Position numbers and translations under genes: made by a program. The notes under the pieces were generated by a model. It saw only the letters and a program-made list of their open reading frames with translations, ran no database searches and was not told where the DNA came from. From Verrucomicrobiota bacterium (lineage in GTDB: Bacteria; Verrucomicrobiota; Verrucomicrobiia; Limisphaerales; UBA8199), in contig JBEKJO010000012.1 in assembly GCA_050011195.1 (NCBI GenBank), positions 895-64,894 on the forward strand: DNA of 64,000 nucleotides, given 5' to 3'. The stretch's first letter is position 1. Each line of letters starts with the position of its first letter. Positions 1 through 12,460 of the stretch are shown piece by piece.

Positions 1-575
1 TCAACGAAATCTTCTCGGGCTTCGACGTGCTCGCGGAAAAGCATGGCCTGGAGAAAATCAAAACCATCGGCGACGCTTACATGGTCGCGGGCGGCATTCC
101 TTTGCCGCGACCCGACCACGCGGAGGCCATCGTGGAACTGGCCCTCGACCTGATGGCAGAGATCGAAAAGTTCAACCGCGCTTACAACACCTCCATCCAC
201 CTCCGCATTGGCATCAGCACCGGCTCCGTCGTTGCCGGCGTGATCGGGCGCCGGAAATTCACCTACGACCTTTGGGGCGACTCCGTCAACCTCGCCTGCC
301 GGTTGGAGTCGCTCGGCCCGGCGGGAAGCATCCAGGTCTCCGAAACGACCTATGAACGGCTAAAAGACAGATACCGATTCGACGGCAGCCAAACCATCGA
401 GATCAAAGGGCATGGCAAAGAGCTTGTCCATACCCTCTACGGCCCTCTCTCGAGCTTCTGCGGGCCGGAGGGCCCTCCGCCGGCGCCGTCAGCGCAAAGG
501 CGAACTCCCAAGGGGAGCGATGCACTGGAGCCGTTTGGCAGCCAGTTGCCGCGGCGATTTGAGCGCTGCGGCTAG
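1..575 (+). CDS. Class III adenylate/guanylate cyclase catalytic-domain protein (5' end lies outside the window)
   Basis: The frame is open from base 3. The translation NEIFSGFDVLAEKHGLEKIKTIGDAYMVAGGIP...GVIGRRKFTYDLWGDSVNLACRLES carries cyclase-homology-domain signatures. Confidence 0.85.
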   Translation, partial: NEIFSGFDVLAEKHGLEKIKTIGDAYMVAGGIPLPRPDHAEAIVELALDLMAEIEKFNRAYNTSIHLRIGISTGSVVAGVIGRRKFTYDLWGDSVNLACRLESLGPAGSIQVSETTYERLKDRYRFDGSQTIEIKGHGKELVHTLYGPLSSFCGPEGPPPAPSAQRRTPKGSDALEPFGSQLPRRFERCG

Positions 576-686
576 TTCTGATGTCGGGAAGGGAGGGGCG
601 AGCTGTTGGCATTGGATGTGGCCCGGCGAAATCCGGATTGGGACGCCCTGTGATCCAGGAAATTGACGAAAGGACCACATGACTGA

Positions 687-989
687 AGCAGCACAGGCCG
701 AATAGCGGAAGTCGGGCCAGGTAAGGGCAAACGCGCCCTGATGTCGGTCACGACCGGCGGCCCAGGGCCCGTCTATACGCAGGACGGCCGGAACGGAGAC
801 ATCCACGCAATCTTGCGCCCCGTCCAGGGCGGGATGCTGCGTTTCACAGGTTTCGAAGTTCTGGCGCCGAACCTGTGCTTCGGACCGGCCCGCGCGACGC
901 CGGAGCAGCGCGCGCAATGGCTCAAAGACTACGCAACCCGCCTGCACCGGATCGCGGAGGAGAAGCCGATCGATGTGGGAGAGTATTGA
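687..989 (+). pseudogene. C-terminal fragment of an NAD(P)H dehydrogenase (quinone)/flavodoxin-like-fold (NQO/MdaB-type) protein; the N-terminal half is missing
   Basis: The open frame GKRALMSVTTGGPGPVYTQDGRNGDIHAILRPVQGGMLRFTGFEVLAPNL parallels, as I recall it, the NQO1 block [49 protein letters not shown]. An in-frame stop lies at 684-686, and there is no room for the flavin-binding N-terminus after the cyclase stop at 575. Confidence 0.6.
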
Positions 990-1080
990 GACTCCCGTTG
1001 TGTCAGTACCAAGTTCGGCAACCACCGGCGAAGCATGATCGCGCGAGCTCTGGCGGTCTGGCTCATGGAAGTCACGCGCT

Positions 1081-2721
1081 TCATCGCGGGCGCGCATGAT
1101 GCAACATCTCCATGATCTGGCGGTGACGGTCCATCAGCATGGGGTTTAGGGCTGGTCCCGATTCAGCCGAAACGGCTTTCCAGTTTGCGTGCTGGACGAA
1201 CGGGTCGGATAGATCAAGAAACCGGTTTTGAGATGGGTCCCAAATGGCGGTCCAATCGCAGACGCATCCATGGCGAGAGGAATTGGCGCTGCCAAGGCGG
1301 CGGACGCACTCTCCCCGAAGGTTCGCTCGGCTGATGGCGGGGGGGAACTCTCTCGCGTGCTCGAAATTATCCACGCCGGGGAAGTGGTGATGCAGAACGC
1401 CCGAGTGGTCGAGCTGGGAAAACAGCCCGGCGTTCCCCAGTTGGCCGAAGCGAGTGTCCAATTCGAACACGCAGCTGCGCAGGGCTTGAAACTTCCTGAA
1501 TCCGTCGGCGGAGGCGCCCCGCTGAAGCAATTGGGGCGCAAATTCCGGCAACACCTGTGCCAAAAGGGTTTCTTCAGCCCAAAGGACCTCGAGATCGGCG
1601 AAATCCGGCGGGAGCTTTTTCCTGGCCAGCAATCTTCCCGTCGCCTCAGCCACTGTGTTCCATTTTTGCACGGCTTGCCAATTATACCCCTGAGCCGCAA
1701 GAAAGTGGTTAAAGGTGCTAAAGCGGATCGCCCAGTCGAGGCGCGTGGCGACCGACCCCGGGCTGCCGGACTCCAGCAGCTCCAGCACGCGCCGCCATTG
1801 CCGACAAACTTCCCCCGCCCAGGTGGGCATAAAAGAAGCGTGCAGGTGCGCCTCGGCCAGCGCGAGGTAGCGCCGCTGGATGGCCAGAGCCGTGACAGGT
1901 TCGCCCCGGGCGGTCGTGACGGTCTGCTGGCAGCGAGGATCCCCGGCAAAAGCCCGCATCGCCTCCAGGGGCGCGGAGAGCTTGAGTTGATCCCCCGGCC
2001 GCAGCCCGGCCTCAATCATCGCCACGACGATGGCCGTTACCCCGACTCGCAAGAAAATCGCCCATTCCGAAAACAAGCTCTCGGAACATAAGAGGTGGAG
2101 CCGGTTGTACCCGGCTGAACTCAGAGACTCGTTCTTGGTGTGCAGCACCCCCCGGCTATGTGTCGATTCGCCTGACACCTCTGCGGCAAGGTGCGGCACG
2201 CGCGGCGAGAGCGTGAAGCGGATGCCGGGGTAACTGGAATCGAAGCCACCGGCGCCGGTGTAGATGAGGCGGCTGGCCAAATGCGGGATCAGATGCTGCC
2301 GAAACAGCCCCGGGTCAGCTTGGTGGAGGTAGGATTCATGCGATCCCCAAGTGCTTCCCGTTCCGCTGTAATCAACGTTTTGCCTGAAGAAGCAGGCCTG
2401 ACCAACGGCATTCTGTTTCTTGGTCAACTCTGCCCCCAGGTCTTCCAAGGTTTTCTCTCCGGCTTTTACGTAGCGAGCGGCGTCCCAGGGGTTGGCCAGT
2501 TCAGGACCGGCGAACTCCGGATGGTGCCCGCAATCAATGTAGAGGCGCGCGCCATTGGTCAGGAACATGCCGCTCGACTGGAGATCCGGGAGGTGGGTCA
2601 GTTGCTGGCGAGCGGTTTCCAGCAACCACCCAGTCGCGAGCGGCAGGGCCATGCGCTGGCCCTGCCGATCCAGCAGCGCGAACGCATACTCGGTCTCGAG
2701 GCCAAAGAGCCGCTCCGCCAC
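1081..2721 (-). CDS. Pup-ligase/deamidase family protein, PafA-like
   Basis: The GTG start lies 2 nt after the Pup-like stop and is preceded by AGGAGGGAGGA. Family blocks present: GLETEYAF, NGARLYIDCGHHPEF, GSTWGSHESYLH, RLHLLCSES, RLDWAIRF. The spacer between the first two blocks is short (~45 aa), as in PafA. Confidence 0.85.
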   Translation of the reverse strand: MAERLFGLETEYAFALLDRQGQRMALPLATGWLLETARQQLTHLPDLQSSGMFLTNGARLYIDCGHHPEFAGPELANPWDAARYVKAGEKTLEDLGAELTKKQNAVGQACFFRQNVDYSGTGSTWGSHESYLHQADPGLFRQHLIPHLASRLIYTGAGGFDSSYPGIRFTLSPRVPHLAAEVSGESTHSRGVLHTKNESLSSAGYNRLHLLCSESLFSEWAIFLRVGVTAIVVAMIEAGLRPGDQLKLSAPLEAMRAFAGDPRCQQTVTTARGEPVTALAIQRRYLALAEAHLHASFMPTWAGEVCRQWRRVLELLESGSPGSVATRLDWAIRFSTFNHFLAAQGYNWQAVQKWNTVAEATGRLLARKKLPPDFADLEVLWAEETLLAQVLPEFAPQLLQRGASADGFRKFQALRSCVFELDTRFGQLGNAGLFSQLDHSGVLHHHFPGVDNFEHAREFPPAISRANLRGECVRRLGSANSSRHGCVCDWTAIWDPSQNRFLDLSDPFVQHANWKAVSAESGPALNPMLMDRHRQIMEMLHHARPR

Positions 2722-2723
2722 GA

Positions 2724-2924
2724 CTACTGTCCTCCCTCCTGACGCATCGAGGCATTGAATGCCTGGCTATTGCTGGAGAGCGCGTTTTGGATCGCGGCGT
2801 CGGCCGCAGCGTGCAAGGCGGCCGCCTGACGACGCAGATCGTTAAGGCTGCTGCCGTCAGGGGTGTCGGCGGGTGGTTCGGGAGGACGGTTTGATTCGAT
2901 ATGGTTTCTTTCGAGTTGATTCAT
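2724..2924 (-). CDS. Pup/UBact-like small protein modifier (66 aa, C-terminal GGQ)
   Basis: MNQLERNHIESNRPPEPPADTPDGSSLNDLRRQAAALHAAADAAIQNALSSNSQAFNASMRQEGGQ. It is small and low-complexity with a helix-prone centre. Its C-terminus ..FNASMRQEGGQ resembles the mycobacterial Pup tail ..FVRAYVQKGGQ. It sits between two Pup-ligase-family genes, and its ATG overlaps the upstream stop (ATGA). Confidence 0.8.
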   Translation of the reverse strand: MNQLERNHIESNRPPEPPADTPDGSSLNDLRRQAAALHAAADAAIQNALSSNSQAFNASMRQEGGQ

Positions 2925-4660
2925 GGCTTTAAGTAGGAAGGTCGGTCGCAATCGGAATCAGTGCTCCAATTGGACTGAGGGTTTGTTGCCTTTGTGGTTT
3001 GGTAACTCGGCGAGAGCCAATACTGCCCGGTGGTGGAGACCGGGTCGGGGTCATGGTCGGGGGCGCCGAGCAGATCCAACGCTTCGTTCAGGTTTTGGCT
3101 ATGGTGAAACACGACCTCGGTGTCGTGCTGGGTGAAGGCCAGGGGATTGGCGAGCATGACCGTCCGTCGGATTTCAGCGCCGCCCTGCGAACGCAACTTG
3201 AACGTGATCTTGTCCCAGTCAACCTCCGCAACCGTCTCGGGATCGGCCAAGCGCAGCAGGTAGGCGCGCGTCCAAGCGCGAGTGTTGGCGGGGGGCTCCT
3301 GGGTAAATTTGCGAATTTGCTCTTCCGTCACGCCGGCGCGTTCCACGGACCCCACCTGATCGCACGCCCAGAACAACCCTTCCTCGAGATCGGCATACTT
3401 GAAATCCAGGTGCTTGATCTCGGGACTGCCCCAGTTGAGTTCCTGGTGTTGTTGCATGGCCCGCTCGAGCAACTGCAGCTTGAGGACCCAATCGAGGCGG
3501 GCCGCCAGCGCTCCGAAATCGCGACGGCTGAGTTTGTCCAGCGTATCAGCCCACAACGCCAGGATCTCACGCGCAGCGGGAACGATGCCGTCGCAACCTC
3601 CGCTGTCCACAAAGCGCGCGGCCTGGTCGAAAAAGCGCCGCTGCAGCTCAAGGGCCGTCACTTCTTCCCCCGTGAGCAGGCCGGCGCGAGCGGTGAGTGC
3701 GGGGTCCCGGCTCCAGCGGGCAACCGTCTCGACCGGGTCTTCCAGAATGAGATGGAGATTCCCATCGGTCTCACCCCGTTCGAGCAGGCTGAGCAGGATC
3801 TGCATCATGCCGGCCCGGAGAACAATGGAGGCAGGACAAAGCGTCGAATCAAAGAAGATGCTATGCAGCCGGGCAAACCGGTCAGCCGGGCACCCGCGAG
3901 CCGTGTAGCCTCCACACAGCGCTTCGTCCCGGCTGTTGACGAGCGGGCGATGGCAGGTGGTCTGGGTTCCCACCAAGCACTCGAAAAAGGAGGCTCTTTG
4001 AGACACTTCGTAGCAACCCTTACCCCCGTCCGTCGTCCTGCTCTCGGAGTTCACCTTGCCTTGCCCCGTGAGGATGATGCTGGAAACCTGAAACGAGGCC
4101 AGCATCAGCAACTGATGAAGACGACGGCGGAACAGCCGATCCCACGCCGTGCGCGTCATCTGCAAACTCATGTGCGAGCCGTAAGAATGTCCTAGCCCGT
4201 CTTCGTTATTGACGACGGCCACGAGCTTTACCTTTTCGGGCAGCCTCGCGTTGGCCGCCTGTAACGCCGATCGGGCGATCCGGAGCATGGCGTGACATGC
4301 GGCCGCAAAATCATAGGCGCTTAAGACCTCTGGGGAGCAAATTTCCAGGTGATCGAGGTCGATGTAAAGGCAGCCGCCGTTGGCCGGCAGATACTTCCTG
4401 CCCCAGTCTTGCGGATTGGTTCCAAACGGTTGGGACTGATGAGACTGGTCAAGCCAGGAACCAGAGTAGCCGGGAGTGGGTCCAGGCAAGCCTTCGACCT
4501 CACGCAAGAGCGCACGCGAGGCCATCGCCCCGGTGCCGTATTCACGTTCCAGCCCCAAGACAAAGTTGCCCAATTCCACATCGGCACCGAGAATCTTCGG
4601 CGCTGCGCCCGTGTCGCTCAGGCCCGGAGCCCTTGGTTTGGGGGATAGTTCGGTTGACAT
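2921..4660 (-). CDS. Pup-ligase/deamidase family protein, Dop-like (divergent active-site motifs)
   Basis: Family blocks present: GADVELG, NGGCLYIDLDHLEICSPE, GHSYGSHMSLQM, EVSQRASFFE, PLVNSRDEAL, FARLHSIFFDS, RLDWVLKLQLLE, PPANTRAWTRAY. A ~70-aa insert follows the first block (Dop-loop-like). The gene lies immediately upstream of the Pup-like gene, as in actinobacterial dop-pup. Confidence 0.85.
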   Translation of the reverse strand: MSTELSPKPRAPGLSDTGAAPKILGADVELGNFVLGLEREYGTGAMASRALLREVEGLPGPTPGYSGSWLDQSHQSQPFGTNPQDWGRKYLPANGGCLYIDLDHLEICSPEVLSAYDFAAACHAMLRIARSALQAANARLPEKVKLVAVVNNEDGLGHSYGSHMSLQMTRTAWDRLFRRRLHQLLMLASFQVSSIILTGQGKVNSESRTTDGGKGCYEVSQRASFFECLVGTQTTCHRPLVNSRDEALCGGYTARGCPADRFARLHSIFFDSTLCPASIVLRAGMMQILLSLLERGETDGNLHLILEDPVETVARWSRDPALTARAGLLTGEEVTALELQRRFFDQAARFVDSGGCDGIVPAAREILALWADTLDKLSRRDFGALAARLDWVLKLQLLERAMQQHQELNWGSPEIKHLDFKYADLEEGLFWACDQVGSVERAGVTEEQIRKFTQEPPANTRAWTRAYLLRLADPETVAEVDWDKITFKLRSQGGAEIRRTVMLANPLAFTQHDTEVVFHHSQNLNEALDLLGAPDHDPDPVSTTGQYWLSPSYQTTKATNPQSNWSTDSDCDRPSYLKP

Positions 4661-4672
4661 GCGAGGCTTCTG

Positions 4673-6340
4673 TTACACGGGGTCGAGGTTGAGATAGCGC
4701 CGGGCGTTGGGCACCTTGCGCACCACAGGCTCGACGCTGACGACATCGACGTCCTGCGGGAGGTCAGCGAGATAGGCATGAACGTTATTGGGCGTGAGCT
4801 GGGTGCGTAACCGTTCTATGCCTTCGATTACGGCTTGCTCCATATCGCTGGCGTTGAGACCCGGCTCGCCGCCGCGAAGTTCGCGAACGAAAGCACGACG
4901 GCAGGCGTTCTCACAGATCTGCATGAAAAACCGGCCACTGGCCAGCTCGCGCGCGCTGATCGTGCGCTCTTTGCCGTCGCGGAATCGGATGCGGCAAATA
5001 GCATTATCCGCATTGGGCGCGTAGAGGAGCGAAACGGCGGCCTCGATTATCTCGTCGCGCGTGCCCGCGGCCAATTCACCGTTTGGCGAGAAGGGCAGTG
5101 ACGGCGGCAAATGTATGTTCAGAATGGCTTTGGCAGCGCACTGGTCCGGGCGACTCACCTGGACCTCCACCGCAAACCGGGCGAGCAGAGCTGGGTCCAG
5201 CAAATCCTTGCGATTGGTGGCGGCGATAATGGCGATGTCTTTACGGTCTTCGAACCCGTCCAGTTCCGCCAGGAGCGCCGCCAGATGTTTGTCACTGTGA
5301 ATGTTGGCGAAATTTCCCCGGGTCCGGGCAATGCTTTCAAGCTCGTCCAGGAAGAGGAAGGCCACCCCGTCGCGGGCCGCCTCCCGCAAGATTTTGAAGG
5401 TGTCCCGGATAGCTTTTTGGGTCGCGCCGACATAGGGGGACTCCCAGGCCGCCGGTTTAATCACGCCGAAGCGAACCCGGCGGCCGCTCAGGCGCCCGAT
5501 GTCGCTCGCCACGATGCGAGTCATGTGGGTCTTGCCGCAACCCGGCGGCCCGACCAACAAAATGGAGTTCCGCCCGCTGAGCCGGTAGCGTCGGGCCATT
5601 TCAGGGGCCACCAGTAGCGCGCTCAACGTGGTCCGCATCGTCTCATAACTGGCATCCAGCCCCCCGAGGAGCTCCCGCGTCAGGCTCGGGACTTCCTCGA
5701 GCATGAACTCCTTTCCCTGAACGTTCTCGACCTTGTCAAAGGCCAGCCAGATGGAGCGGTCGAATCGGACCAGATCCCCGGGCTGGAGCGCAAGGCTAGC
5801 GAGAGGGTGCGCCGGTTGCAGCACGATTTCATCATCGCGGCAGTTCACAACCAAATGGCCGTCACTGGTTCGGCGGTCGAATACACCGACCTCGCCGCAC
5901 CGTGGCAGACCATCGGGGGAGACGCCGGTGATCACATTCAATTCGTGGTTGAGGAAGACTTGGTCGCCCGGGCGCAGGGACTCGACCTCCAGTTCGGGAG
6001 CGAGATTGACCACCCGCCGGGCGCCGCCCTGGTGTACGATCGCCCGCGCCCCGGCCCCGGTGGACAGCGGTCCCATGAAAACCGCTGCCACCCAGGGCGT
6101 GGCCAGAACCCTATCCAGCGTTTCTTTAAGTTTCGCTTGGAGTCGCTGGGCCTCGTGAAGCCCGATCCTGGCCAGGTCCAGGTGTTCCAGGAGGTTTCGG
6201 TCAACGAAGTCCGCCAGGTCGGCGGATTCCAGGCGCAGCGCCTTGAGTTGCGCTAGCCGCTGGTCCAGGCTGAGATCGGCCTTGAGGCAAAAGTTGACCA
6301 GTTCTGTGGCGAAAGGATCAGGGGTGGCAGGACGTTTCAT
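4673..6340 (-). CDS. AAA+ ATPase, Mpa/ARC/PAN-like unfoldase (coiled coil, OB-like domains, AAA module)
   Basis: Coiled-coil N-terminus (LDQRLAQLKALRLE...LQAKLKETLDRV). OB-like segments (GDQVFLNHELNVI; GDLVRFDRSIWLAF). Walker A GPPGCGKTH and Walker B FLFLDELES. The start is set at the internal ATG 6340; the ORF-track start 6409 would overlap the upstream gene by 92 nt. Confidence 0.85.
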   Translation of the reverse strand: MKRPATPDPFATELVNFCLKADLSLDQRLAQLKALRLESADLADFVDRNLLEHLDLARIGLHEAQRLQAKLKETLDRVLATPWVAAVFMGPLSTGAGARAIVHQGGARRVVNLAPELEVESLRPGDQVFLNHELNVITGVSPDGLPRCGEVGVFDRRTSDGHLVVNCRDDEIVLQPAHPLASLALQPGDLVRFDRSIWLAFDKVENVQGKEFMLEEVPSLTRELLGGLDASYETMRTTLSALLVAPEMARRYRLSGRNSILLVGPPGCGKTHMTRIVASDIGRLSGRRVRFGVIKPAAWESPYVGATQKAIRDTFKILREAARDGVAFLFLDELESIARTRGNFANIHSDKHLAALLAELDGFEDRKDIAIIAATNRKDLLDPALLARFAVEVQVSRPDQCAAKAILNIHLPPSLPFSPNGELAAGTRDEIIEAAVSLLYAPNADNAICRIRFRDGKERTISARELASGRFFMQICENACRRAFVRELRGGEPGLNASDMEQAVIEGIERLRTQLTPNNVHAYLADLPQDVDVVSVEPVVRKVPNARRYLNLDPV

Positions 6341-7418
6341 GAATATCAGTACCGATGATGGACGCCGCCTCGACCACCGGCAGCGGCCGGGCGGTGTCGG
6401 GTTTAACAATGTGAAAACCGCGTTGAGTAATCACCGCCCGATCCCAGCCATACATGGTTAGTTTCATACCCGAGAAGGTATTGGTGACCAGGAGGGCGAT
6501 GCAGTGGGGTTGCCAGAAGGCGACGCGATGCAAATCACAGTCCGCCCTGGAAAAGAAGGGCGTGTTGAACGGGCATTGCTCCTTGGCTTCGGGTGAGCAG
6601 TCTTTATTGCAAAAATACCGGGCTGGGTGATTGTGAAAAAATCCCACGATTTGCTCGGCACTGCGGCGCAGATCCAGCGCGGCCTGAGCGGCAGCCCAGG
6701 TGTCCGCCGTAAAGGAGAGCCGCGTGGATTCCGATAAGGTATGGCGCGCGGGGATCTGCGCGGTGACTTTCAGGAAGAGTTCCTGCGTGCTCCGATCCTG
6801 GTGCATCTGACCGATGAGCACCGCCCCGACCTCGACGTTCTTGGCTCGCTCCGTCAGCGCCAGCACCTCATCAATCACTCCTTGCGGCACGAAAACCGGG
6901 ATCAGACCGGAACCGACATCCCCAAAGGCGATGGACCGCTCGAGCTCGTCATTGATCGAGCCTGGGGTCAGTGCCGTCGGCACAGGCACGTCCTCGATCT
7001 CAAGTGGATCCGGTGCCCTGGCACCTTGATCGTCGGATGCCGGGAAAGCCAGCACAGCGTAGGTGAACAGTTCACCAGATTCCAGTTTCTTCTGGTCCAC
7101 AAGGGCGTCTCCGATCCTCATGGCGCCGGGCTTAAAGAAGCTGTTCGGAATGTCCGCCGTAATCGTGGGCATTGTGTCTGTCCGGGCGGTCACGCGCAGG
7201 CCCTCGACGTACGGCGCTCCAGCCGTGGCGTGCCAAAGGGGCTGAATATGGATTTCCGCCTCGGCGGCCGACTTCGGGTTTAACCAGCGACACAGGGCGG
7301 TGAAGCGGCCCCATTCGGCGGCGGGCACGAAGTCCAGCTTCGCCGGGAATTGGCCCAGCAACGCCCCGCTCTTGGCGCGGGACATATCGAAAAAGTAGCG
7401 GAAGGATTGACGCGGCAT
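6318..7418 (-). CDS. JAB/MPN+ (JAMM) metallopeptidase with an uncharacterised N-terminal domain
   Basis: C-terminal JAMM elements are NVEVGAVLIGQ (Glu), FFHNHP (HxH) and FFSRADCDLH (S..D). The N-terminal ~200 aa has no motif I recognise. The start is set at ATG 7418; the ORF-track start 7574 would overlap the Ubl gene by 119 nt. Confidence 0.8.
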   Translation of the reverse strand: MPRQSFRYFFDMSRAKSGALLGQFPAKLDFVPAAEWGRFTALCRWLNPKSAAEAEIHIQPLWHATAGAPYVEGLRVTARTDTMPTITADIPNSFFKPGAMRIGDALVDQKKLESGELFTYAVLAFPASDDQGARAPDPLEIEDVPVPTALTPGSINDELERSIAFGDVGSGLIPVFVPQGVIDEVLALTERAKNVEVGAVLIGQMHQDRSTQELFLKVTAQIPARHTLSESTRLSFTADTWAAAQAALDLRRSAEQIVGFFHNHPARYFCNKDCSPEAKEQCPFNTPFFSRADCDLHRVAFWQPHCIALLVTNTFSGMKLTMYGWDRAVITQRGFHIVKPDTARPLPVVEAASIIGTDIHETSCHP

Positions 7419-7455
7419 AGGAAGAGGGGCGGCGGAGACCGCCGCCCCGTGTCCT

Positions 7456-7746
7456 TCAGCGGGTGCTCCCGGCGTCCACGTTCGGGTGAAGGGTAATCTG
7501 GTCGTTTGGGACCAACACCTCGCCAACCACTTCAGAGGAGTGGGCGTGCCGACCCAGGCGGTCAACCCGCGCATGGTAAGTCAGCGCCCGCCCGACGGAA
7601 TCCTGCGACGGGAGTTGGAGTCTCGGCAGCAGGTCCTGGACGAGATCCCCCATCGTGGAATCCATCGGTACCCGCCGGGCGCGCACACGCTTTTGACCGG
7701 TCAGGTCGGTGGCCGTGATGTTGGGAACAAATAATGGCTGTATCAT
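7456..7746 (-). CDS. Ubiquitin-like (beta-grasp) protein, 96 aa
   Basis: ATDLTGQKRVRARRVPMDSTMGDLVQDLLPRLQLP parallels ubiquitin [32 protein letters not shown]. The distal QITLHPNVDAG parallels STLHLVLRLRGG. It lies within the E1/E2/JAB cluster, and its ATG overlaps the upstream stop (ATGA). Confidence 0.7.
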   Translation of the reverse strand: MIQPLFVPNITATDLTGQKRVRARRVPMDSTMGDLVQDLLPRLQLPSQDSVGRALTYHARVDRLGRHAHSSEVVGEVLVPNDQITLHPNVDAGSTR

Positions 7747-8639
7747 AATTTCCTTTCGGTTGTTTGTTGGCTATCCTCGCTGTTGCGGGGGCCACCCCGG
7801 ATCGCGAGAAAGAGTTTGGCAGCTTCTTCATGCTGCAAAATGTCAACCACGGGGGCGCAAAGATCGGCGCCGACCGAGAGCGCTTCCAGCGCAGAGCGCA
7901 ACTCCGCCGCGGAAACCGGCGCCTCGAACAGGACTTCCAGTTGAGCGGCGCCACCGCTCTCATCCTCGGCGACAATGGCCCGCGCCAGCCTAAGCCGCGC
8001 GTTGGCCGTCAATAGCAAGGCAGAAAGGCCCTCTCGGCCAGGTGTGGGCAACGAGTCCCACGAGGCGAGTTCGGTACTGACCCGCACTGTCCCGGCCTGC
8101 GCTGTGAGCGAGGCTGTGTGCGCACCCCGACGGGTGTCCAGAAGAACGGCACAACGATCAGCCCGCCGCGAAGAGCACTGCCAACCAGCCGCTTCGACCA
8201 GCTTGGCCAAGTCCGGTGGCGCCACCTCGGGGGTAACGGTAACTGGATTTTCATTAGGGTCGAGCGTCAGATGCTGGGCGGCGGCGAACGCCCGGCATGC
8301 CTGGTCGAGCCGCAGGGAAACATTGCTTTCTGCCTCGACGGGGATTTCCGCCCGGAGCGACAAGTCGCTGTCCAGATTGGAGGAGAACTTTACGAGACCC
8401 GTCAAACTGGCGTTGACTTTAAGAAGGTCCCAGCGCGAGGGAGGAGTTCCGGGGGAAAATGTCCCCGCGAGAAGGAGAAACCCATCCCTAAGCTGCACCA
8501 GCAGCGGCGGCGCCGAAGAATCCTTGGGGCGGCCCCGCCAGCGGTCCGGAGCGACCGGCTCCACGGACTCCATTGCGGCCTGCAACGCAGCCTGGCACCG
8601 ACTCGCGTCGGCTACCGTGTGAGACTCGGATGCGATCAT
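7743..8639 (-). CDS. Hypothetical protein (298 aa) with two similar halves, embedded between the E2 and Ubl genes
   Basis: A long ORF translationally coupled at both ends by ATGA overlaps. The two halves share a pattern: LLVQLRDGFLLLAG...LLKVNASLTGLVKF...LSLRAEIPVE versus CAVLLDTRRGAHTASL...LLLTANARLRLARAIV...LEVLFEAPV. I recognise no family. Confidence 0.6.
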   Translation of the reverse strand: MIASESHTVADASRCQAALQAAMESVEPVAPDRWRGRPKDSSAPPLLVQLRDGFLLLAGTFSPGTPPSRWDLLKVNASLTGLVKFSSNLDSDLSLRAEIPVEAESNVSLRLDQACRAFAAAQHLTLDPNENPVTVTPEVAPPDLAKLVEAAGWQCSSRRADRCAVLLDTRRGAHTASLTAQAGTVRVSTELASWDSLPTPGREGLSALLLTANARLRLARAIVAEDESGGAAQLEVLFEAPVSAAELRSALEALSVGADLCAPVVDILQHEEAAKLFLAIRGGPRNSEDSQQTTERKL

Positions 8640-9172
8640 GGCTCACTCGCCTCCTTAACGTCACGAACCTGTGCCAAATAATCTGGCCGTTTCAACGGCC
8701 GGGGGTCTGTGGGGAACCGGCTCTGGTTGTTGCGCGCCCAGGCACAAGCCTCTTTGTTTAAACAGTTGTCTTCCCGGGGATTGAATTTGCGGTACACGAT
8801 AATCTCGAAGATTTGGTAAAGAATATCCACCAGGCCTGTGCCGGGTTGCAACCGGCCGATGCAGATGGCCCCCGCCGGGCCAAGAATATTTGGGTGAAAG
8901 ACGTTCGTCGGACCCAGCCAGGTGAGCACTTCTGGTATCGCGGCCCGTCGAAAGAAGTCGGCGGGAAAGAAAATGCCGACAATGAACAATCCACCTTCGC
9001 CGAGGCGCCCATCGCGGTTCTGGACAACCCCTTTGCAGCGGAACTCGGCGATATATTGTTGTGGGGTCGAACCCGCTGCCGGCATCAGCCTGAGGATGTC
9101 GCTTTTCGCGGCCAGCGCCCGGCCATCGGCGAGCTGACACTCCAAAAAGTTGCTGAATGATTTATCGTTCAT
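8636..9172 (-). CDS. E2-like ubiquitin-conjugating (UBC-fold) protein
   Basis: FIVGIFFPADFF...LTWLGPTNVFHPNILGPAGAICIGRL matches the UBC signature (FP..YP-like flap, HPN triad, catalytic Cys in the ICI/ICL context). ATG 9172 is preceded by GGAG 4 nt upstream and lies 10 nt after the E1 stop. Confidence 0.8.
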   Translation of the reverse strand: MNDKSFSNFLECQLADGRALAAKSDILRLMPAAGSTPQQYIAEFRCKGVVQNRDGRLGEGGLFIVGIFFPADFFRRAAIPEVLTWLGPTNVFHPNILGPAGAICIGRLQPGTGLVDILYQIFEIIVYRKFNPREDNCLNKEACAWARNNQSRFPTDPRPLKRPDYLAQVRDVKEASEP

Positions 9173-9182
9173 GGGACTCCTT

Positions 9183-10277
9183 TTAAGAACGGCCAAGCTC
9201 GAAAAAGTTAATCTGGCGCCGCTCGCCTATGGCAATCACGTCCGCCGGTTGGAGGCCCAGCGCGGACAAAGGATGGGCCAGGTCTCCGGGCGAAAGCGCG
9301 TCGCGAGCAAGGACGTTTGCCAGGCCTGTGCCCGTCGGTGACATGCGCCGGCCACACTTGGCGCAGGCCTGCGCCGCGGCACCGAACCTACCTTTAAGCC
9401 GCAGGACTGACCGCCGCGCACCGCACGAGCAGGCGAGTTCGCGCACAAACAGTTTGCCAGGCACTTCCAAGACGCCGGCGGCCTGGGATTTCGAGTTCGA
9501 GCCGTCTGACCCCAGGGCGAAGGCCTCCGCTACGGTGATTCGCCGTGGGCTCCGGCGTAAAGTGCGGATGTTGAAAGCGCCGTGGTCCAAGCGACACGTC
9601 TCGCGCCGCTCGAGGCGCGTCACGAACAGCTTTCGCGAGAAGGCATCATAGACTAACTCGCGGTTCAGCGATGCCTGGTCGAATTGCCCTGAGAGCAGCC
9701 TGGCGAATTCCGCGGTTTGGAGGCTGGCCGCCAGCGACCCCAGGTATGCCGGCGAATTCGTGGGGGGAGGCGTAAACTCCGGCTGACAAGGATAACTCTG
9801 CTCCGAGGCGTAATCTGCACTGTTCAGGGCGCATTCGTAGCAGGGGGCCTTTTGCCCCTGGGCGAAGGTGGAAATTCGTACCAGCCAAGGCGCGCTGACG
9901 CCCGAGTCTATCCAGAAAGGGATGGCCAGCTTACGGAACGCATAGTTGGCTACCATCCGGGCGCGCTTGGAATCCAAGGCAGTCAACAGGACGTCGCAGC
10001 GAAACAATCCCAACGGCAGATTCTCGATATCGGTAACCAGATGCTCGATTTGAAGCATGGGATTGATCGCTTGCATCATTTCGGCCACAGCTTGTGCCTT
10101 GGGCCGGCCGGCGTCCGCAGGGTGCCAGGCCTGAGTCTTCGTGACCACGTCCCGGTCAATAACCCGCACGCGACCCACGTTTGGGAGCGACGCTACCAGA
10201 AGCCCAAGGAACCTGCCGATCAGGCCGGCCCCGATTTGCAGCAAGTCTATGGGTTTGGAATGGTGGATGTGATTCAT
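9183..10277 (-). CDS. E1-like ThiF/MoeB/UBA-family adenylyltransferase with a C-terminal Cys-rich extension
   Basis: Nucleotide-binding IGAGLIGRFLG, IDRDVV, ALDSKRARMVAN, a CYEC pair and YPC. The C-terminal ~110 aa carries CSC...CAKC. Its ATG overlaps the upstream stop (ATGA). Confidence 0.85.
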   Translation of the reverse strand: MNHIHHSKPIDLLQIGAGLIGRFLGLLVASLPNVGRVRVIDRDVVTKTQAWHPADAGRPKAQAVAEMMQAINPMLQIEHLVTDIENLPLGLFRCDVLLTALDSKRARMVANYAFRKLAIPFWIDSGVSAPWLVRISTFAQGQKAPCYECALNSADYASEQSYPCQPEFTPPPTNSPAYLGSLAASLQTAEFARLLSGQFDQASLNRELVYDAFSRKLFVTRLERRETCRLDHGAFNIRTLRRSPRRITVAEAFALGSDGSNSKSQAAGVLEVPGKLFVRELACSCGARRSVLRLKGRFGAAAQACAKCGRRMSPTGTGLANVLARDALSPGDLAHPLSALGLQPADVIAIGERRQINFFELGRS

Positions 10278-10819
10278 AGACCATTAGGGGACCAACGGAA
10301 GCCAATCTCCGAATCGGTTGATTGATCGCAGAGCGGGCATTGCGTCGTTCCCGGATAACGCCAGCACGGCAATTCCTCCGTTTGGTGGCACCACGCCCCG
10401 CACGCGGGACAGGCGACCGCCAGCGAACCCCGTTCGATCGGCTTTCGGCAGCGGGCACAGAAAATCTCCTGGGCCGCCCCCGGAAAGGCAACGACTTGCG
10501 GCAGACGTTCAGTGGTGAAGTACAGCCGCTGGCCGTTTCCCAGGCGAATCTCATCCCGATCTCGGAGCGTGGTCGAACCCAGCAGTGCCTTGCGACCGTT
10601 CACCCGCAGCCGGCTTTCTGGCGCCACGACCAAGAACCAATGTTCGGTAGATTCATGAACCATGCGCACGAGTAGCTCGCTGGCGATGGGGCTAGTCGGG
10701 GAGTCGGCGCGCCGGATATACGGCTCGGCGGCCGCAAAGCGGTAGGTCGAACCGCCCAGCGGCTGGACCGCCCAGCACTGTCCGCTCTCACTCGTCTTCT
10801 GGATCCAGAGATGCGCCAT
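10274..10819 (-). CDS. FHA-like domain protein with a C-terminal Cys/His-rich (RING/PHD- or double-zinc-ribbon-like) domain; candidate E3
   Basis: The FHA-like core is HWFLVVAPESRLRVNGRKALLGSTTLRDRDEIRLGNGQRLYF. The C-terminus reads CARC-x12-CPAC-x3-CH-x6-C-x8-CPLC. It is the first gene of the co-directional cluster. Confidence 0.65.
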   Translation of the reverse strand: MAHLWIQKTSESGQCWAVQPLGGSTYRFAAAEPYIRRADSPTSPIASELLVRMVHESTEHWFLVVAPESRLRVNGRKALLGSTTLRDRDEIRLGNGQRLYFTTERLPQVVAFPGAAQEIFCARCRKPIERGSLAVACPACGAWCHQTEELPCWRYPGTTQCPLCDQSTDSEIGFRWSPNGL

Positions 10820-10942
10820 AAGAATGCAGTTCTAAATTGTCTTGCTCTATGGAAGCTGTTTTAGGCCCCGCTGCCAAACCACTGAACCTCCTTTTGCGCT
10901 GTCTTTGGCGCAGGGCGAATTGAGCCGCAAATACAGGCCACT

Positions 10943-11719
10943 TCAGCCTCCTCGGGAGCCTTCCTCCCCTGAACCTCCCCGCGCGCCGAGCACTGAATCA
11001 AATAAGCCGGCCCAAAACTTCTCCGGCGGTTCCGCGGCGGCGTCCAGGACTATATTGCTCACGGGAGTCGAAAGACGGTACCCCGCCAGCCTTTGCCCGG
11101 ACTCAATCAGGTTCGGATTGAATCCCCGCTCGCGCAGACGACGGCGCAGCTTGGCTACACACCGATAAATGTCCGATTCGATCGGGTAGGGCCAGCGGCC
11201 GGCCAACAAGCCACCTTCAGCGGTTAATTTGAGGATGATGTCCAGGATGGCTTTGACCGGCAGGAAAGCTGGCAACTGGTTCCTGCCGGCTTTCGACGCT
11301 GTGGCAGCGCACTTCGCCAGCCAGGCCAATATCAAAAGCAGGGTGTGCTCGCGACGGTTAAGTTTAATGGGTGGCTTGGTGTTAATCTTCAGCTCGCGAT
11401 GGTCATTTGTCCCCAACCGCCCACGAATCTCGACCACATCAATGGTGAGGTAGTCGCCGCTACGGATTTGGTCCGGCACGGGCTGGTGGGACACAGACGA
11501 GGAGAGCTGGGGGTGGGTGTCGGCCGCCTCCTTCGTGTTCGCAGGGGAAAGTTCCGGAAAACCGGCAATCAGCTCATCCGGCTTCAGGGAGGGTTTGGCT
11601 GCGGGGTCCGACGGAGCGCTCCCGCCGCGCCGGCAGATGCGTTGCAGGAGCTTGACAGCCAGGCACAGATGCCATAAAGCCAGAGCCGCGAGGGTCTTTG
11701 ATTTGCTTGTGTCAGCCAT
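10943..11719 (-). CDS. Winged-helix (OmpR/PhoB-type C-terminal effector domain) transcriptional regulator without a receiver domain
   Basis: LNRREHTLLLILAW...ESDIYRCVAKLRRRLRERGFNPNLIESGQRLAGYRLS matches the trans_reg_C pattern. ATG 11719 is preceded by GGAGGA about 8 nt upstream. Confidence 0.7.
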   Translation of the reverse strand: MADTSKSKTLAALALWHLCLAVKLLQRICRRGGSAPSDPAAKPSLKPDELIAGFPELSPANTKEAADTHPQLSSSVSHQPVPDQIRSGDYLTIDVVEIRGRLGTNDHRELKINTKPPIKLNRREHTLLLILAWLAKCAATASKAGRNQLPAFLPVKAILDIILKLTAEGGLLAGRWPYPIESDIYRCVAKLRRRLRERGFNPNLIESGQRLAGYRLSTPVSNIVLDAAAEPPEKFWAGLFDSVLGARGGSGEEGSRGG

Positions 11720-12448
11720 GAGTTTTTTCCTCCAGTGTTTTGGGTTATCTTCTCTTGCGGAACCGTGGGGGGATTTTTTTGCACAGCTCGCGCAACCCAC
11801 GACCGATCCCATTCCGCGCAGCGGCCCACTCGCCGCGTCGGAACAACAAGCACCAAGCGTGCAGAATGATTCTGCCCCAGGGGCGCTCCGCCAGCCATAG
11901 TTGCAGCAAAGCCCGCCGCCGGGGCGTAGTGGCACGCCGGTTGCCCAGAAGCGCAACCCCAGGCACACGAGCGGGGCGTCCTCGTTTCATGCTCCCTCCC
12001 CTGCGTCGCGCGCTGGCACATCACTCGCTCCCGAGCTTGACCTCAGGGTTGTTCCGCAGATGCCAGCCTGGTGCTCGTACCGCGGCGGCAAACCCCTGCA
12101 ACGGCAACAAAGCCAAACCGCGCACGATTCCAACAGAGTTGGGGAAGCACCGAACCACGGCCCAACAGCCCCAAGGACGGGGGTGGGAGCGGCTGGCGCT
12201 GGCGCGGGAGATCCCGCGCCACCGAATGGCCCCGGGTGTCGCGCAACCCACGCCGGGGCGCCACCGCGCCGGCGCACCCAGGCGCGACTCAAGGCTACTT
12301 GGCTGGAAGCGCCAGGACGGACTGACCGCGGCAGCGCGGCAACCCGATACCGACCGCCTCGCCGGTGCGCGAAGCCCGAAAGCGGACAGCATGCCGTACC
12401 GCTACGTGAAGGTGCGGCGCCTGTGGGCGGAGCTGCCGCCGTAGGCTC

Positions 12449-12460
12449 GGGGGGGGGGGG
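12449..12460. repeat. Homopolymeric G12 (C12) tract
   Basis: Read directly: ...gtaggctc gggggggggggg tggtag... Confidence 0.9.

What the first reader, a model, noticed from the sequence alone, without database searches (positions are those of the whole stretch)
2724..2924. 66-aa Pup/UBact-like modifier ending in GGQ, encoded between the two ligase-family genes
The product (MNQLERNH...SQAFNASMRQEGGQ) has Pup's size. It has a low-complexity N-terminus, a central helix-prone segment (LNDLRRQAAALHAAADAAIQNAL) suited to docking on an Mpa-type coiled coil, and the exact GGQ terminus. In mycobacteria that terminus must be deamidated by Dop before PafA ligates it. The ORF-track start (2951) adds 9 residues, but the ATG at 2924 overlaps the Dop-like stop, which favours the shorter form. 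A GGQ tail in an apparently Gram-negative, proteasome-less context is unusual and easy to test.
Basis: partly seen in the sequence, partly recalled or inferred. Interest (0 to 1): 0.75.

Follow-up and report, generated by a model that had tools for sequence, protein, structure and literature searches.

The report
Divergent Pup-like tag in Ubl/Pup operon
The 66-residue gene is real and conserved, and is best read as a divergent relative of the bacterial protein tag Pup that the standard Pup and UBact models miss; it always sits in a ten-gene operon that also encodes a complete ubiquitin-like E1/E2/RING/JAB tagging system and an Mpa-like unfoldase, with no proteasome genes nearby.

Summary
**Observation: confirmed.** A 66-codon ORF (2924→2724, minus strand) ends in MRQEGGQ. 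Its ATG overlaps the stop codon of the upstream Dop-like gene (ATGA).

**Coding evidence.**
- Every related locus examined carries a 64-68-aa ORF at the same place.
- dN/dS against the closest related locus is 0.11 overall and 0.04 over the C-terminal 41 codons.
- A search of 1.84 billion representative proteins found 45 relatives. 45 of the 46 family sequences end in GG[Q/E].

**Family assignment.**
- No curated Pup or UBact model is reached.
- A profile of the family ranks Pup first in the PDB, aligned without gaps to the last residue. hhalign gives 71% against Pup and 0.1% against UBact.
- I therefore read it as a third, unmodelled clade of Pup-like tags. It is mostly lysine-free and only weakly acidic.

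**Neighbours.** The upstream enzyme has Dop-type features and the downstream enzyme has PafA-type features.

**Likely mechanism (inferred, not shown).** Dop-like deamidation converts GGQ to GGE. PafA-like ligation then attaches it to lysines. An Mpa-like AAA+ protein reads the tag.

**Context.** In all six lineages with enough sequence, the gene lies in a conserved operon: RING-like, E1, E2, YbjN-like, Ubl, JAB, AAA+, Dop, tag, PafA. No 20S proteasome gene was found in the window or in these loci. The literature holds one sentence noting such a Ubl-Pup coupling.

**Verdict:** new variant of a known kind. Expression and conjugation are untested.

The parts
2724..2924 (-). Pup-like small modifier gene (66 aa, ends QEGGQ; stop codon included)
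   Evidence: ORF and sequence. Related ORFs at the same place in L001, L002, L003, L014, L015, L017 and L019. dN/dS 0.11 overall and 0.04 in the C-terminal half. Family of 46 sequences. Pup is the top PDB profile hit. hhalign 71% against Pup. Helix at residues 24-64.
2921..4660 (-). Dop-like deamidase/depupylase homologue (579 aa)
   Evidence: Pfam Pup_ligase 1.8e-82. TIGR03688 Dop 234 bits against PafA 190 bits, both below cut-off. PDB: Dop 8.3e-55 against PafA 1.5e-27. GADVELG start motif. Dop-type spacing after the catalytic Asp (YIDLDHLE). An extra stretch of about 45 aa at the Dop-loop position. Dop-type alpha-loop residues (F.E..G), judged against Table 1 of PMC7947786.
1081..2721 (-). 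PafA-like ligase homologue (546 aa, GTG start)
   Evidence: Pfam Pup_ligase 1.9e-77. TIGR03686 PafA 215 bits against Dop 205 bits. Aligns to PafA from residue 2 and has no Dop loop. GLETEY start motif. PafA-type one-residue insertion after the catalytic Asp (YIDCGHHPE, compared with the 'VHA to LVGS' change in PMC7947786). His/Ser/Ser at alpha-loop positions 25, 29 and 33.
4673..6409 (-). Mpa/ARC-like AAA+ unfoldase. Public gene calls use the ATG at about 6340, giving 555 aa.
   Evidence: Pfam AAA plus Prot_ATP_ID_OB_N and Prot_ATP_ID_OB_C. TIGR03689 pup_AAA 253 bits, the best NCBIfam hit. Single-stretch match of residues 84-530 to Mpa 77-554 in 7px9. The N-terminal stretch before the OB domains and a near-C-terminal R-[RH]-[YF]-[LV] motif followed by 2-5 residues are conserved across loci; I read the N-terminal stretch by eye as a likely coiled coil.
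6318..7574 (-). JAB/MPN metalloprotease homologue (public gene-366 aa)
   Evidence: Prok-JAB 1.9e-4 and JAB 0.016, both sub-threshold. PADLOC JAB 3.3e-4. Conserved in all related loci.
7456..7746 (-). 96-aa putative beta-grasp ubiquitin-like protein ending ...NVDAG-STR
   Evidence: No family hit. 71-77% identical in L001-L003 where neighbouring genes are 35-76% identical. Alignment A2 shows an invariant A-G followed by 0-3 residues. The fold is not verified: single-sequence AF2 gave pLDDT 43.
7743..8639 (-). 298-aa YbjN-like protein of unknown role
   Evidence: Pfam YbjN 1.5e-4, 22.5 bits against a cut-off of 22. Conserved position in all loci.
8636..9196 (-). E2-like ubiquitin-conjugating enzyme (HPN motif followed by a Cys: HPNILGPAGAICIG)
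   Evidence: Pfam UQ_con 4.9e-6, 26.6 bits against a cut-off of 27. Motif read from the translation. Conserved in all loci.
9183..10277 (-). E1-like ThiF-family adenylating enzyme
   Evidence: Pfam ThiF 2.6e-16. NCBIfam ThiF/MoeB/SAMP-E1 hits. Conserved in all loci.
10274..10819 (-). 181-aa protein with a C-terminal Cys/His-rich, RING-like treble-clef region; first gene of the operon
   Evidence: Prok-RING_1 E=0.0023, sub-threshold. Conserved at the head of the operon in L001-L003, L015 and L019.

Best explanation
The ORF encodes a Pup-family protein tag that belongs to a distinct clade recognised by neither the Pup nor the UBact curated models.

Proposed mechanism, by analogy with the actinobacterial pathway:
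1. The protein is largely unstructured. Its conserved C-terminal half (consensus AAgDAAIxxALSGNSxAF[LN]xAxRQxGG[Q/E]) folds into helix when it binds a partner.
2. The upstream Dop-like enzyme deamidates the terminal Gln to Glu. The clade members that end in GGE would skip this step.
3. The downstream PafA-like enzyme phosphorylates the Glu gamma-carboxylate and joins it to lysine side chains of target proteins. The Dop-like enzyme can remove the tag again.
4. The Mpa-like AAA+ protein encoded just upstream captures the helical part of the tag and unfolds or remodels the tagged protein. No 20S proteasome is encoded nearby, so the outcome may be remodelling, or hand-over to an unlinked protease.
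5. The tag is made together with a separate beta-grasp Ubl/E1/E2/RING/JAB conjugation module in a single operon. The two tagging systems therefore probably act on the same process and may share the unfoldase.

What is shown here: the gene is real and under purifying selection, its C-terminus and gene context are conserved, it resembles Pup at profile level, and the flanking enzymes carry Dop-type and PafA-type features. What is inferred: every biochemical step, and any interplay with the Ubl module.
For: **Coding and conservation.** Related ORFs of 64-68 aa lie at the same position in every related locus fetched. dN/dS is 0.11 overall and 0.04 for codons 26-66. There are 45 relatives among 1.84 billion representative proteins, 44 of them 64-69 aa, and all align to their last residue.

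**C-terminal signature.** GG[Q/E] is found in 45 of 46 sequences (Q 38, E 8). Q at position -5 is found in 46 of 46 and F at -11 in 43 of 46.

**Link to Pup.**
- The family profile ranks Pup chains first in the PDB (7px9_G E=0.07; also 3m9d, 7oxy, 3m91, 9cku and 7oy3). The alignment IerALSgnSeaFlaanrQeGGQ / IDDVLEENAEDFVRAYVQKGGQ is ungapped and anchored at the C-terminus.
- hhalign against M. tuberculosis Pup gives probability 71%, E 3.7e-5.
- 5 of 46 members touch Pfam Pup, best E 0.0026.
- 2 of 46 members touch TIGR03687, best E 0.0027.

**Shape.** AF2 on the family alignment gives coil for residues 1-23 and a helix for 24-64, with pTM 0.37, so no globular fold.

**Enzymes.** Both flanking genes are Pup_ligase family members that keep the catalytic Asp. 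The upstream one is Dop-type and the downstream one PafA-type by the discriminating positions in PMC7947786.

**Reader.** The AAA+ protein has Mpa architecture.

**Context.** The ten-gene operon is conserved in the window, L001, L002, L003, L015 and L019. These loci range from 24.9% to 77% protein identity to the window.
Against: - The window protein matches no Pfam or NCBIfam model even at E<=10. Single-sequence phmmer against the PDB does not find Pup.
- The profile-level similarity is weak (E 0.07; 71%) and covers about 22-40 residues of a low-complexity, alanine-rich helix. Convergence cannot be formally excluded.
- The clade differs chemically from Pup. Its mean net charge is -2.5 against -12 for M. 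tuberculosis Pup, and the Lys at -4 of Pup is replaced. Docking on the AAA+ protein or on PafA may therefore differ.
- Both flanking enzymes fall far below the curated Dop and PafA cut-offs. The downstream one scores slightly better against Dop than against PafA in the PDB.
- L019 has no PafA-like gene within its 11.6-kb contig.
- No RNA run could be found, so expression is unverified.
Confidence: 0.75

Rival explanations
1. It is a member of the UBact family, the Pup homologues described in Gram-negative phyla including Verrucomicrobia.
For: It lies between Dop and PafA homologues in a Gram-negative, Verrucomicrobiota-like genome. L001 and L002 are Verrucomicrobiota MAGs. The window carries TonB, ExbB, T2SS and PEP-CTERM genes. 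It ends in Q.
Against: No family member matches NF033388 at E<=10. A UBact-type control sequence scores 64.5 bits against a cut-off of 35 in the same library. hhalign of the family against that UBact-type sequence gives 0.1%, compared with 71% against Pup. The terminal motif is Q-x-G-G-[QE], not the R-[TS]-G-[EQ] that I recall for UBact (from memory).
Confidence: 0.04
2. It is a small partner peptide that is not conjugated to proteins. It could be a regulator or decoy substrate of the two carboxylate-amine ligase homologues, or a carrier whose terminal Glu/Gln is ligated to a small molecule, as in LysW-type carriers or a modified-peptide precursor.
For: [quoted passage not shown] No conjugation has been shown. 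The peptide is nearly lysine-free and not acidic, unlike Pup. L019 has only one ligase homologue.
Against: An Mpa-type unfoldase with OB domains is always encoded next to it. The end-anchored similarity is to Pup. Alternation between Q and E at the terminus is the pattern expected for a deamidation-then-ligation tag. The family contains no Cys, so there is no zinc ribbon like that of LysW.
Confidence: 0.12
3. It is a Pup-type tag with a dedicated role inside the operon. It would mark one or a few components or clients of the co-encoded Ubl system for the AAA+ protein, for example by switching the E1/E2/RING or JAB proteins on or off, rather than acting as a general degradation tag.
For: It is strictly co-inherited with the Ubl/E1/E2/RING/JAB module in 6 of 6 lineages that have enough upstream sequence. 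No linked 20S genes were found. Flanking genes differ between lineages, as in mobile or accessory modules. PMC7159879 places related Ubl modules in conflict systems.
Against: There is no direct evidence. PADLOC gives no specific defence-system match. This reading refines the main explanation rather than excluding it.
Confidence: 0.3
4. It is a chance ORF in GC-rich DNA between two real genes.
For: It is short, alanine-rich and low in complexity, and has no HMM hit.
Against: dN/dS is 0.04-0.11 with near-saturated dS. Length, start position and C-terminus are conserved even in loci whose neighbouring genes are only 25-50% identical. There are 45 distinct relatives.
Confidence: 0.01

Closest known systems
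Actinobacterial Pup (prokaryotic ubiquitin-like protein; Pfam PF05639, TIGR03687) with Dop, PafA and Mpa
   Same: Size of about 64-66 aa. Variable, disordered N-terminus and helix-forming C-terminal half. Terminal GG[Q/E] with both Q and E forms. Shared positions counted from the C-terminus: Q-1, G-2, G-3, Q-5, A-8, F-11, N-15, L-18 and I-22. Gene order mpa-like, dop-like, tag, pafA-like. Flanking enzymes carry Dop-type and PafA-type discriminating features.
   Different: It does not reach the curated Pup models. It is alanine/serine-rich and only weakly acidic, with net charge about -2.5 against -12. 30 of 46 members have no lysine, and the Lys at -4 of Pup is replaced by E/Q/S/D. No prcB/prcA genes lie between the tag and pafA or elsewhere in the loci examined. 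The host is Gram-negative and Verrucomicrobiota-like. It is embedded in an operon with a beta-grasp Ubl system.
UBact (NCBIfam NF033388), the Pup homologues of Nitrospirae, Verrucomicrobia and other Gram-negative phyla
   Same: A small tag encoded between Dop and PafA homologues, next to an Mpa homologue, in Gram-negative bacteria, ending in Q or E.
   Different: No detectable sequence relationship. The terminus is x-G-G-[QE], not R-[TS]-G-[EQ] (the latter from memory). As I recall, the UBact report describes loci that include proteasome subunit genes; these loci have none.
[quoted passage not shown]
   Same: The same idea: an E1/E2/RING(E3)/JAB/Ubl module and a Pup module in one gene neighbourhood, read by the authors as linking Ubl conjugation to degradation.
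   Different: That paper gives one sentence in its main text, with no description of the tag, its clade or its motif in the passages I read. Here the operon is in Verrucomicrobiota-like genomes. The tag family is defined (46 sequences), and the ten-gene order is shown to be conserved across divergent lineages. I could not check whether their loci are the same family.
Proteasome-independent pupylation, as in Corynebacterium (own knowledge) and the Plesiocystis and Rhodopirellula neighbourhoods in PMC2588565
   Same: Pup, a ligase and an ARC/Mpa-type ATPase without linked 20S genes. This implies unfolding or remodelling rather than obligatory proteasomal degradation.
   Different: Those systems are not fused to a beta-grasp Ubl cascade. 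Absence of a 20S proteasome from the whole genome is not shown here.

Membership tests
Pup (PF05639 / TIGR03687) | Small protein (about 50-90 aa) that is intrinsically disordered, with a helix-forming C-terminal half | tested here: met
   The protein is 66 aa and 44 of its 45 relatives are 64-69 aa, one being 91 aa. AF2 on the family alignment gives coil for 1-23 and a helix for 24-64, pTM 0.37. The N-terminal half evolves about 5 times faster than the C-terminal half.
Pup (PF05639 / TIGR03687) | C-terminal G-[EQ], typically G-G-[QE] (PMC2588565) | tested here: met
   GGQ in 37, GGE in 8 and NGQ in 1 of 46 sequences. All four close loci end in GGQ.
Pup (PF05639 / TIGR03687) | Gene adjacent to PafA/Dop (Pup_ligase family) genes | tested here: met
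   Pup_ligase genes lie on both sides in the window and in L001-L003, L014 and L015. One is seen downstream in L017, whose contig ends upstream of the tag, and one upstream in L019.
Pup (PF05639 / TIGR03687) | Scores above the curated cut-off of the family model | tested here: not met
   The window protein has no hit at E<=10 in Pfam or NCBIfam. Among 46 members, 5 touch PF05639 (best E 0.0026) and 2 touch TIGR03687 (best E 0.0027). The control, M. tuberculosis Pup, scores 74.7 bits against a cut-off of 41.45.
Pup (PF05639 / TIGR03687) | Remote homology to Pup detectable by profile methods | tested here: inconclusive
   The top PDB profile hit is Pup (E 0.07), and 6 of the top 11 hits are Pup chains, aligned without gaps to the C-terminus. 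hhalign gives 71%, E 3.7e-5. The results are consistent but below conventional significance.
Pup (PF05639 / TIGR03687) | Isopeptide linkage of the terminal Glu gamma-carboxylate to substrate lysines; deamidation of the Gln form by Dop | not testable with these tools
   This needs biochemistry or proteomics. No RNA run was available either.
Pup-proteasome system | 20S proteasome subunit genes (prcB/prcA) in the neighbourhood | tested here: not met
   None lies between the tag and the pafA-like gene. No Proteasome family was found among 20 other window ORFs of 151-398 aa, nor among called genes of L004-L020. The rest of the genome was not examined.
UBact (NF033388) | Match to the UBact model | tested here: not met
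   0 of 46 members match at E<=10. A UBact-type control scores 64.5 bits against a cut-off of 35. hhalign gives 0.1%.
UBact (NF033388) | C-terminal R-[TS]-G-[EQ] (recalled from the original description, not verified in a held paper) | tested here: not met
   Positions -4 to -1 are [EQSD]-G-G-[QE].
Beta-grasp ubiquitin-like modifiers | Beta-grasp fold with a C-terminal Gly that is activated by an E1 | tested here: not met
   The predicted structure is a single helix with no strands. The terminal residue is Q/E, not G. A separate 96-aa gene in the operon (7456-7746) is the candidate beta-grasp Ubl.
Dop (TIGR03688), for the upstream enzyme | Dop loop, Dop-type spacing after the catalytic Asp (V-D-H-A-H-P-E) and a loop-type alpha-loop (PMC7947786) | tested here: met
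   YIDLDHLE has the same spacing as Dop. There is an extra stretch of about 45 aa before the NGG motif, and F.E..G in the alpha-loop. PDB scores are Dop 8.3e-55 against PafA 1.5e-27. The curated cut-off is not reached: 234 bits against 492.
PafA (TIGR03686), for the downstream enzyme | No Dop loop, a one-residue insertion after the catalytic Asp (L-D-V-G-S-H-P-E), and His/Ser/Ser in the alpha-loop (PMC7947786) | tested here: inconclusive
   YIDCGHHPE carries the insertion. There is no Dop loop. H, S and S align to positions 25, 29 and 33, and the N-terminus aligns to PafA from residue 2. However, PDB scores slightly favour Dop (1.5e-48 against 2.5e-36), and the TIGR03686 score of 215 bits is far below the 551 cut-off.

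The most novel reading that the evidence does not exclude
This is a third clade of Pup-like tags, separate from Pup and UBact, that evolved as part of a two-tag machine. One operon would install both a lysine-free Pup-like tag (through Dop/PafA chemistry) and a beta-grasp ubiquitin-like tag (through E1/E2/RING, trimmed by JAB). A single Mpa-like unfoldase would read one or both tags without a dedicated 20S proteasome. That would be a bacterial system in which the two evolutionarily unrelated protein-tagging chemistries are functionally coupled.
Probability: 0.35. Interest if true: 0.8.

Novelty: new variant of a known kind. Interest (0 to 1): 0.6.

Why it matters
- **Annotation gap.** Pupylation and ubiquitin-like conjugation are chemically and evolutionarily unrelated ways of tagging proteins. 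Here both are encoded in one tightly packed, conserved operon around a single Mpa-like unfoldase. The Pup-like tag belongs to a clade that the current annotation models miss: where a public source gives a name, it is 'hypothetical protein'. A model for this clade would let pipelines recognise these systems.
- **New questions.** The system offers a way to ask how two tags cooperate or compete. It also allows a test of what pupylation does without a linked proteasome, and of why this tag has lost its lysines and most of its acidic charge.
- **Enzyme evolution.** One lineage (L019) shows only a single Dop/PafA-family enzyme within its 11.6-kb contig, next to a Gln-ended tag. This bears on how ligase and deamidase activities diverged (PMC7947786).

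Tried and rejected
**Searches that could not be made or gave nothing**
- Direct Pfam and NCBIfam scans of the 75-aa and 66-aa forms gave nothing, even at E<=10.
- Single-sequence phmmer against the PDB returned only a chance cytochrome c' match at E 2.5.
- No RNA sequencing run was listed for the region, so expression is untested.
- The promoter/terminator consensus scan of 1-12500 did not exceed the shuffled controls.
- PADLOC gave only generic AAA/JAB/E1 similarity and no defence-system assignment.

**Structure predictions that failed**
- The single-sequence run gave pLDDT 43 and is unusable, so the beta-grasp fold of the 96-aa protein is not verified.
- A PafA-tag fusion model was considered and dropped. 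It would not be an exact window sequence, and no deep alignment could be built.

**Literature**
- The 2011 prokaryotic RING paper (PMC5938088) is not held.
- Searches for 'UBact' found only passing citations.

**Readings rejected**
- UBact membership.
- Chance ORF.
- The 75-aa TTG start.

**Limits of coverage**
- The genome contigs and metagenome-contig scans found only 2 loci and 1 locus. They could not be repeated with a profile because of the caps.
Full report
**1. The observation**

The minus strand carries an ORF at 2724..2951 (75 aa from a TTG). The internal ATG at 2924 gives the 66-aa product MNQLERNHIESNRPPEPPADTPDGSSLNDLRRQAAALHAAADAAIQNALSSNSQAFNASMRQEGGQ. The ATG overlaps the TGA stop of the upstream 579-aa gene (ATGA). 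The downstream 546-aa gene starts at a GTG 2 nt after the TAG stop.

Two results favour the 66-aa start. Loci L001, L002, L003 and L014 each have a 66-aa ATG ORF at the same position. The exact 66-aa protein is a called gene in 37 blocks of public assemblies, while the 75-aa form is not in the collection.

**2. It is a real, constrained gene**

Against L001, whose neighbouring enzymes are 70-76% identical to the window's, dS is 0.82 and dN is 0.09. For codons 26-66, dN/dS is 0.033/0.766. For codons 1-25 it is 0.196/0.918. The C-terminal half is therefore under strong purifying selection and the N-terminal half is much freer, the pattern expected for a Pup-like protein.

In L002 the PafA-like enzyme is only 49% identical, yet the last 41 residues of the small protein still read NLDTLRQQAAALRAAADAAIAHALSANSQDFNAAMRQEGGQ.

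**3. The family**

A phmmer search of the 66-aa protein against 1.84 billion representative proteins found 45 hits at E<=1e-3. 44 of them are 64-69 aa (one is 91 aa), and all align through to their last residue.

The alignment (A1) has the consensus ...AAgDAAIxxALSGNSxAF[LN]xAxRQxGG[Q/E]. Counting from the C-terminus:

| Position | Residue | Sequences (of 46) |
|---|---|---|
| -1 | Q | 38 |
| -1 | E | 8 |
| -2 | G | 46 |
| -3 | G | 45 |
| -5 | Q | 46 |
| -11 | F | 43 |
| -14 | S | 45 |
| -17 | S | 46 |
| -18 | L | 43 |
| -22 | I | 42 |

Where a public source gives these proteins a name, it is 'hypothetical protein'.

**4. Relation to Pup and UBact**

The window protein matches nothing in Pfam or NCBIfam, even at E<=10. 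It does not find Pup in the PDB by single-sequence search.

The libraries are adequate for the test. M. tuberculosis Pup scores 74.7 bits on TIGR03687 (cut-off 41.45).

At profile level the picture changes:
- The A1 profile ranks Pup chains first in the PDB (7px9_G E=0.07). Six of the top eleven hits are Pup.
- The alignment is ungapped and anchored at the C-terminus: IerALSgnSeaFlaanrQeGGQ against IDDVLEENAEDFVRAYVQKGGQ.
- hhalign of A1 against M. tuberculosis Pup gives 71% probability, E 3.7e-5.
- Five of 46 members touch Pfam Pup and two touch TIGR03687, all below threshold.
- No member touches UBact, and hhalign against the UBact-type sequence gives 0.1%.

I conclude that this is a Pup-family tag from a distinct, unmodelled clade that is closer to actinobacterial Pup than to UBact. 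The sequence evidence alone is weak. It becomes convincing only together with the conserved terminus and the gene context.

**5. Shape and composition**

AlphaFold2 on A1 predicts coil for residues 1-23 and one long helix for 24-64. Mean pLDDT is 74, peaking at 94 over residues 31-40, and pTM is 0.37, so there is no globular fold.

The clade differs from Pup in two ways:
- It is barely acidic, with mean net charge -2.5 against -12 for M. tuberculosis Pup.
- It is strikingly poor in lysine. 30 of 46 members have none, and K makes up 1.0% of residues against 9.9% for R. The Lys at -4 of Pup is replaced by E, Q, S or D.

A lysine-free tag cannot itself be tagged on a side chain by either conjugation system in the operon. 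This is an inference.

**6. The two flanking enzymes**

Both are Pup_ligase family members (1.8e-82 and 1.9e-77). Both fall far below the curated Dop and PafA cut-offs, and both keep the catalytic Asp.

| Feature | Upstream enzyme (2921-4660) | Downstream enzyme (1081-2721) |
|---|---|---|
| PDB score against Dop | 8.3e-55 | 1.5e-48 |
| PDB score against PafA | 1.5e-27 | 2.5e-36 |
| Start motif | GADVELG | GLETEY |
| Motif after catalytic Asp | YIDLDHLE, Dop-type spacing | YIDCGHHPE, PafA-type one-residue insertion |
| Dop-loop position | extra stretch of about 45 residues | no loop |
| Alpha-loop | Dop-type F.E..G | His, Ser, Ser at positions 25, 29, 33 |
| N-terminal alignment | aligns to Dop from about residue 82-87 | aligns to PafA from residue 2 |

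The discriminating positions come from the 'VHA to LVGS' change and Table 1 of PMC7947786. The gene order dop-like, tag, pafA-like matches the canonical one. For the downstream enzyme the PDB scores slightly favour Dop, so its assignment as the ligase rests on these structural features and is less secure.

**7. The unfoldase**

The next gene upstream encodes an AAA+ protein with proteasomal-ATPase OB domains. Its best NCBIfam hit is the Pup-system ATPase (TIGR03689, 253 bits). Residues 84-530 match Mpa residues 77-554 in a single stretch.

Its N-terminal stretch is conserved across loci and looks to me like a coiled coil, judged by eye. Its C-terminus carries a conserved R-[RH]-[YF]-[LV] motif followed by 2-5 further residues. 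As I recall, Mpa ends exactly in GQYL, so this resembles the Mpa docking tail but is not terminal. Whether it can dock on a 20S proteasome is open.

**8. Context**

The finding as written does not mention the rest of the operon. Upstream on the same strand, with overlapping or abutting reading frames, lie the following:
- A RING-like treble-clef protein (10274-10819).
- A ThiF-type E1 (9183-10277).
- An E2 with an HPN...Cys motif (8636-9196).
- A YbjN-like protein (7743-8639).
- A 96-aa protein (7456-7746).
- A JAB protease (6318-7574).

The 96-aa protein is the best conserved gene of the operon: it is 71% identical in L002, where its neighbours are 35-61% identical. It ends in an invariant Ala-Gly followed by 0-3 extra residues. 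That is what a ubiquitin-like protein matured by a JAB protease would look like. Its fold could not be verified.

All ten genes occur in the same order in L001, L002 and L003 and in the distant L015. L019 has the same order but shows no PafA-like gene within its 11.6-kb contig. In L015 and L019 the tag is only 38-43% identical to the window's. Every lineage with enough upstream sequence therefore has the hybrid operon (6 of 6). In L015 the PafA-like gene is 939 aa long.

No proteasome subunit family was found among 20 other window ORFs of suitable size, nor among the called genes of the related loci. The rest of the genomes could not be examined.

The window's other genes (TonB, ExbB, T2SS, PEP-CTERM, prepilin-type N-terminal motifs) and the titles of L001 and L002 point to Verrucomicrobiota.

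**9. Mechanism proposed**

By analogy with the Pup pathway (PMC7947786, PMC2588565):
1. The Dop-like enzyme deamidates Gln66.
2. The PafA-like enzyme ligates the resulting Glu gamma-carboxylate to target lysines.
3. The Mpa-like ATPase captures the helical half of the tag and unfolds or remodels the target.
4. The Dop-like enzyme can reverse the mark.

The shared operon suggests that this module and the Ubl/E1/E2/RING/JAB module act on one process and may share the unfoldase. All of these steps are inferred. None is shown here.

**10. Prior knowledge and novelty**

- Pup homologues with a G[EQ] end in verrucomicrobia, planctomycetes, nitrospirae and deltaproteobacteria were reported in 2008. 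Two of those genomes (Plesiocystis and Rhodopirellula) lack proteasome genes in the neighbourhood (PMC2588565).
- UBact was named in 2017; I found only citations of it.
- I found no description of this tag clade, of its motif, or of the Verrucomicrobiota operon.

I therefore rate it a new variant of a known kind. The gene is an expected component once the Dop/PafA pair is recognised. Its clade and its hybrid operon are not characterised.

**11. Limits**

- Expression is untested.
- Homology to Pup is weak at the sequence level.
- The UBact motif and the UBact control sequence come from my memory, although the control was validated by its strong hit to NF033388.
- Absence of a proteasome applies only to the DNA examined.

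Noticed in passing
window 1081-10819 (minus strand); also L001, L002, L003, L015, L019: A ten-gene operon joins a complete ubiquitin-like cascade (RING-like, E1, E2, YbjN-like, 96-aa Ubl, JAB) to a Pup module (Mpa-like AAA+, Dop-like, tag, PafA-like). Reading frames overlap or abut, and the gene order is conserved down to about 25-50% protein identity.
   Followed up: partly
window 7456-7746 (-); alignment A2: The 96-aa putative Ubl is the most conserved protein of the operon. It ends in an invariant Ala-Gly followed by 0-3 variable residues (STR, GIR, GAR, G-R, or none in L002 and L019). This suggests C-terminal trimming by the adjacent JAB protease to expose ...AG. The fold could not be confirmed because AF2 failed.
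   Followed up: partly
alignment A1 (family of the 2724-2924 product): 30 of 46 family members contain no lysine at all (K 1.0% of residues against R 9.9%). The tag could not be modified on a side chain by either lysine-directed system, nor form chains.
   Followed up: partly
window 2721-2745 (-): The codons for the conserved QEGGQ tail (CAGGAGGGAGGACAG) form a GGAGG Shine-Dalgarno-like sequence just upstream of the PafA-like GTG start. GGAGG is also kept in L001, L003, L014 and L015. The tail codons may therefore also serve translational coupling.
   Followed up: no
L019 9208-9408 and L015 10202-13021: In L019 (NCBI GCA_964619725.1) the GGQ-ended tag is followed by a sigma-factor gene, and no PafA-like gene is present on the 11.6-kb contig. 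Only one 632-aa Dop-like enzyme is visible. In L015 the PafA-like gene is extended to 939 aa.
   Followed up: partly
window 4673-4720 (-), C-terminus of the AAA+ protein: A conserved R-[RH]-[YF]-[LV] motif lies 2-5 residues before the C-terminus in all seven related sequences. It is reminiscent of the terminal GQYL of Mpa (from memory) but is not terminal. Its relevance to proteasome docking is unknown.
   Followed up: no
window 489-1097 (-) and about 900-1000 (+): Public gene calls disagree downstream of the PafA-like gene. Some call a 202-aa same-strand ORF that overlaps its 3' end and has no family hit. Others call an 82-aa opposite-strand gene with a weak Flavodoxin_2 hit. A response-regulator/guanylate-cyclase gene follows; its 3' part is at window 27-575.
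   Followed up: no
window 10943-11719 (-): A gene of about 258 aa lies directly upstream of the operon. It has no family hit and is present in all same-species contigs. It could be a regulator or an eleventh component.
   Followed up: no
window 19267-24738 (+) and 41950-47919 (-): Two very long ORFs (1823 and 1989 aa) were not examined.
   Followed up: no
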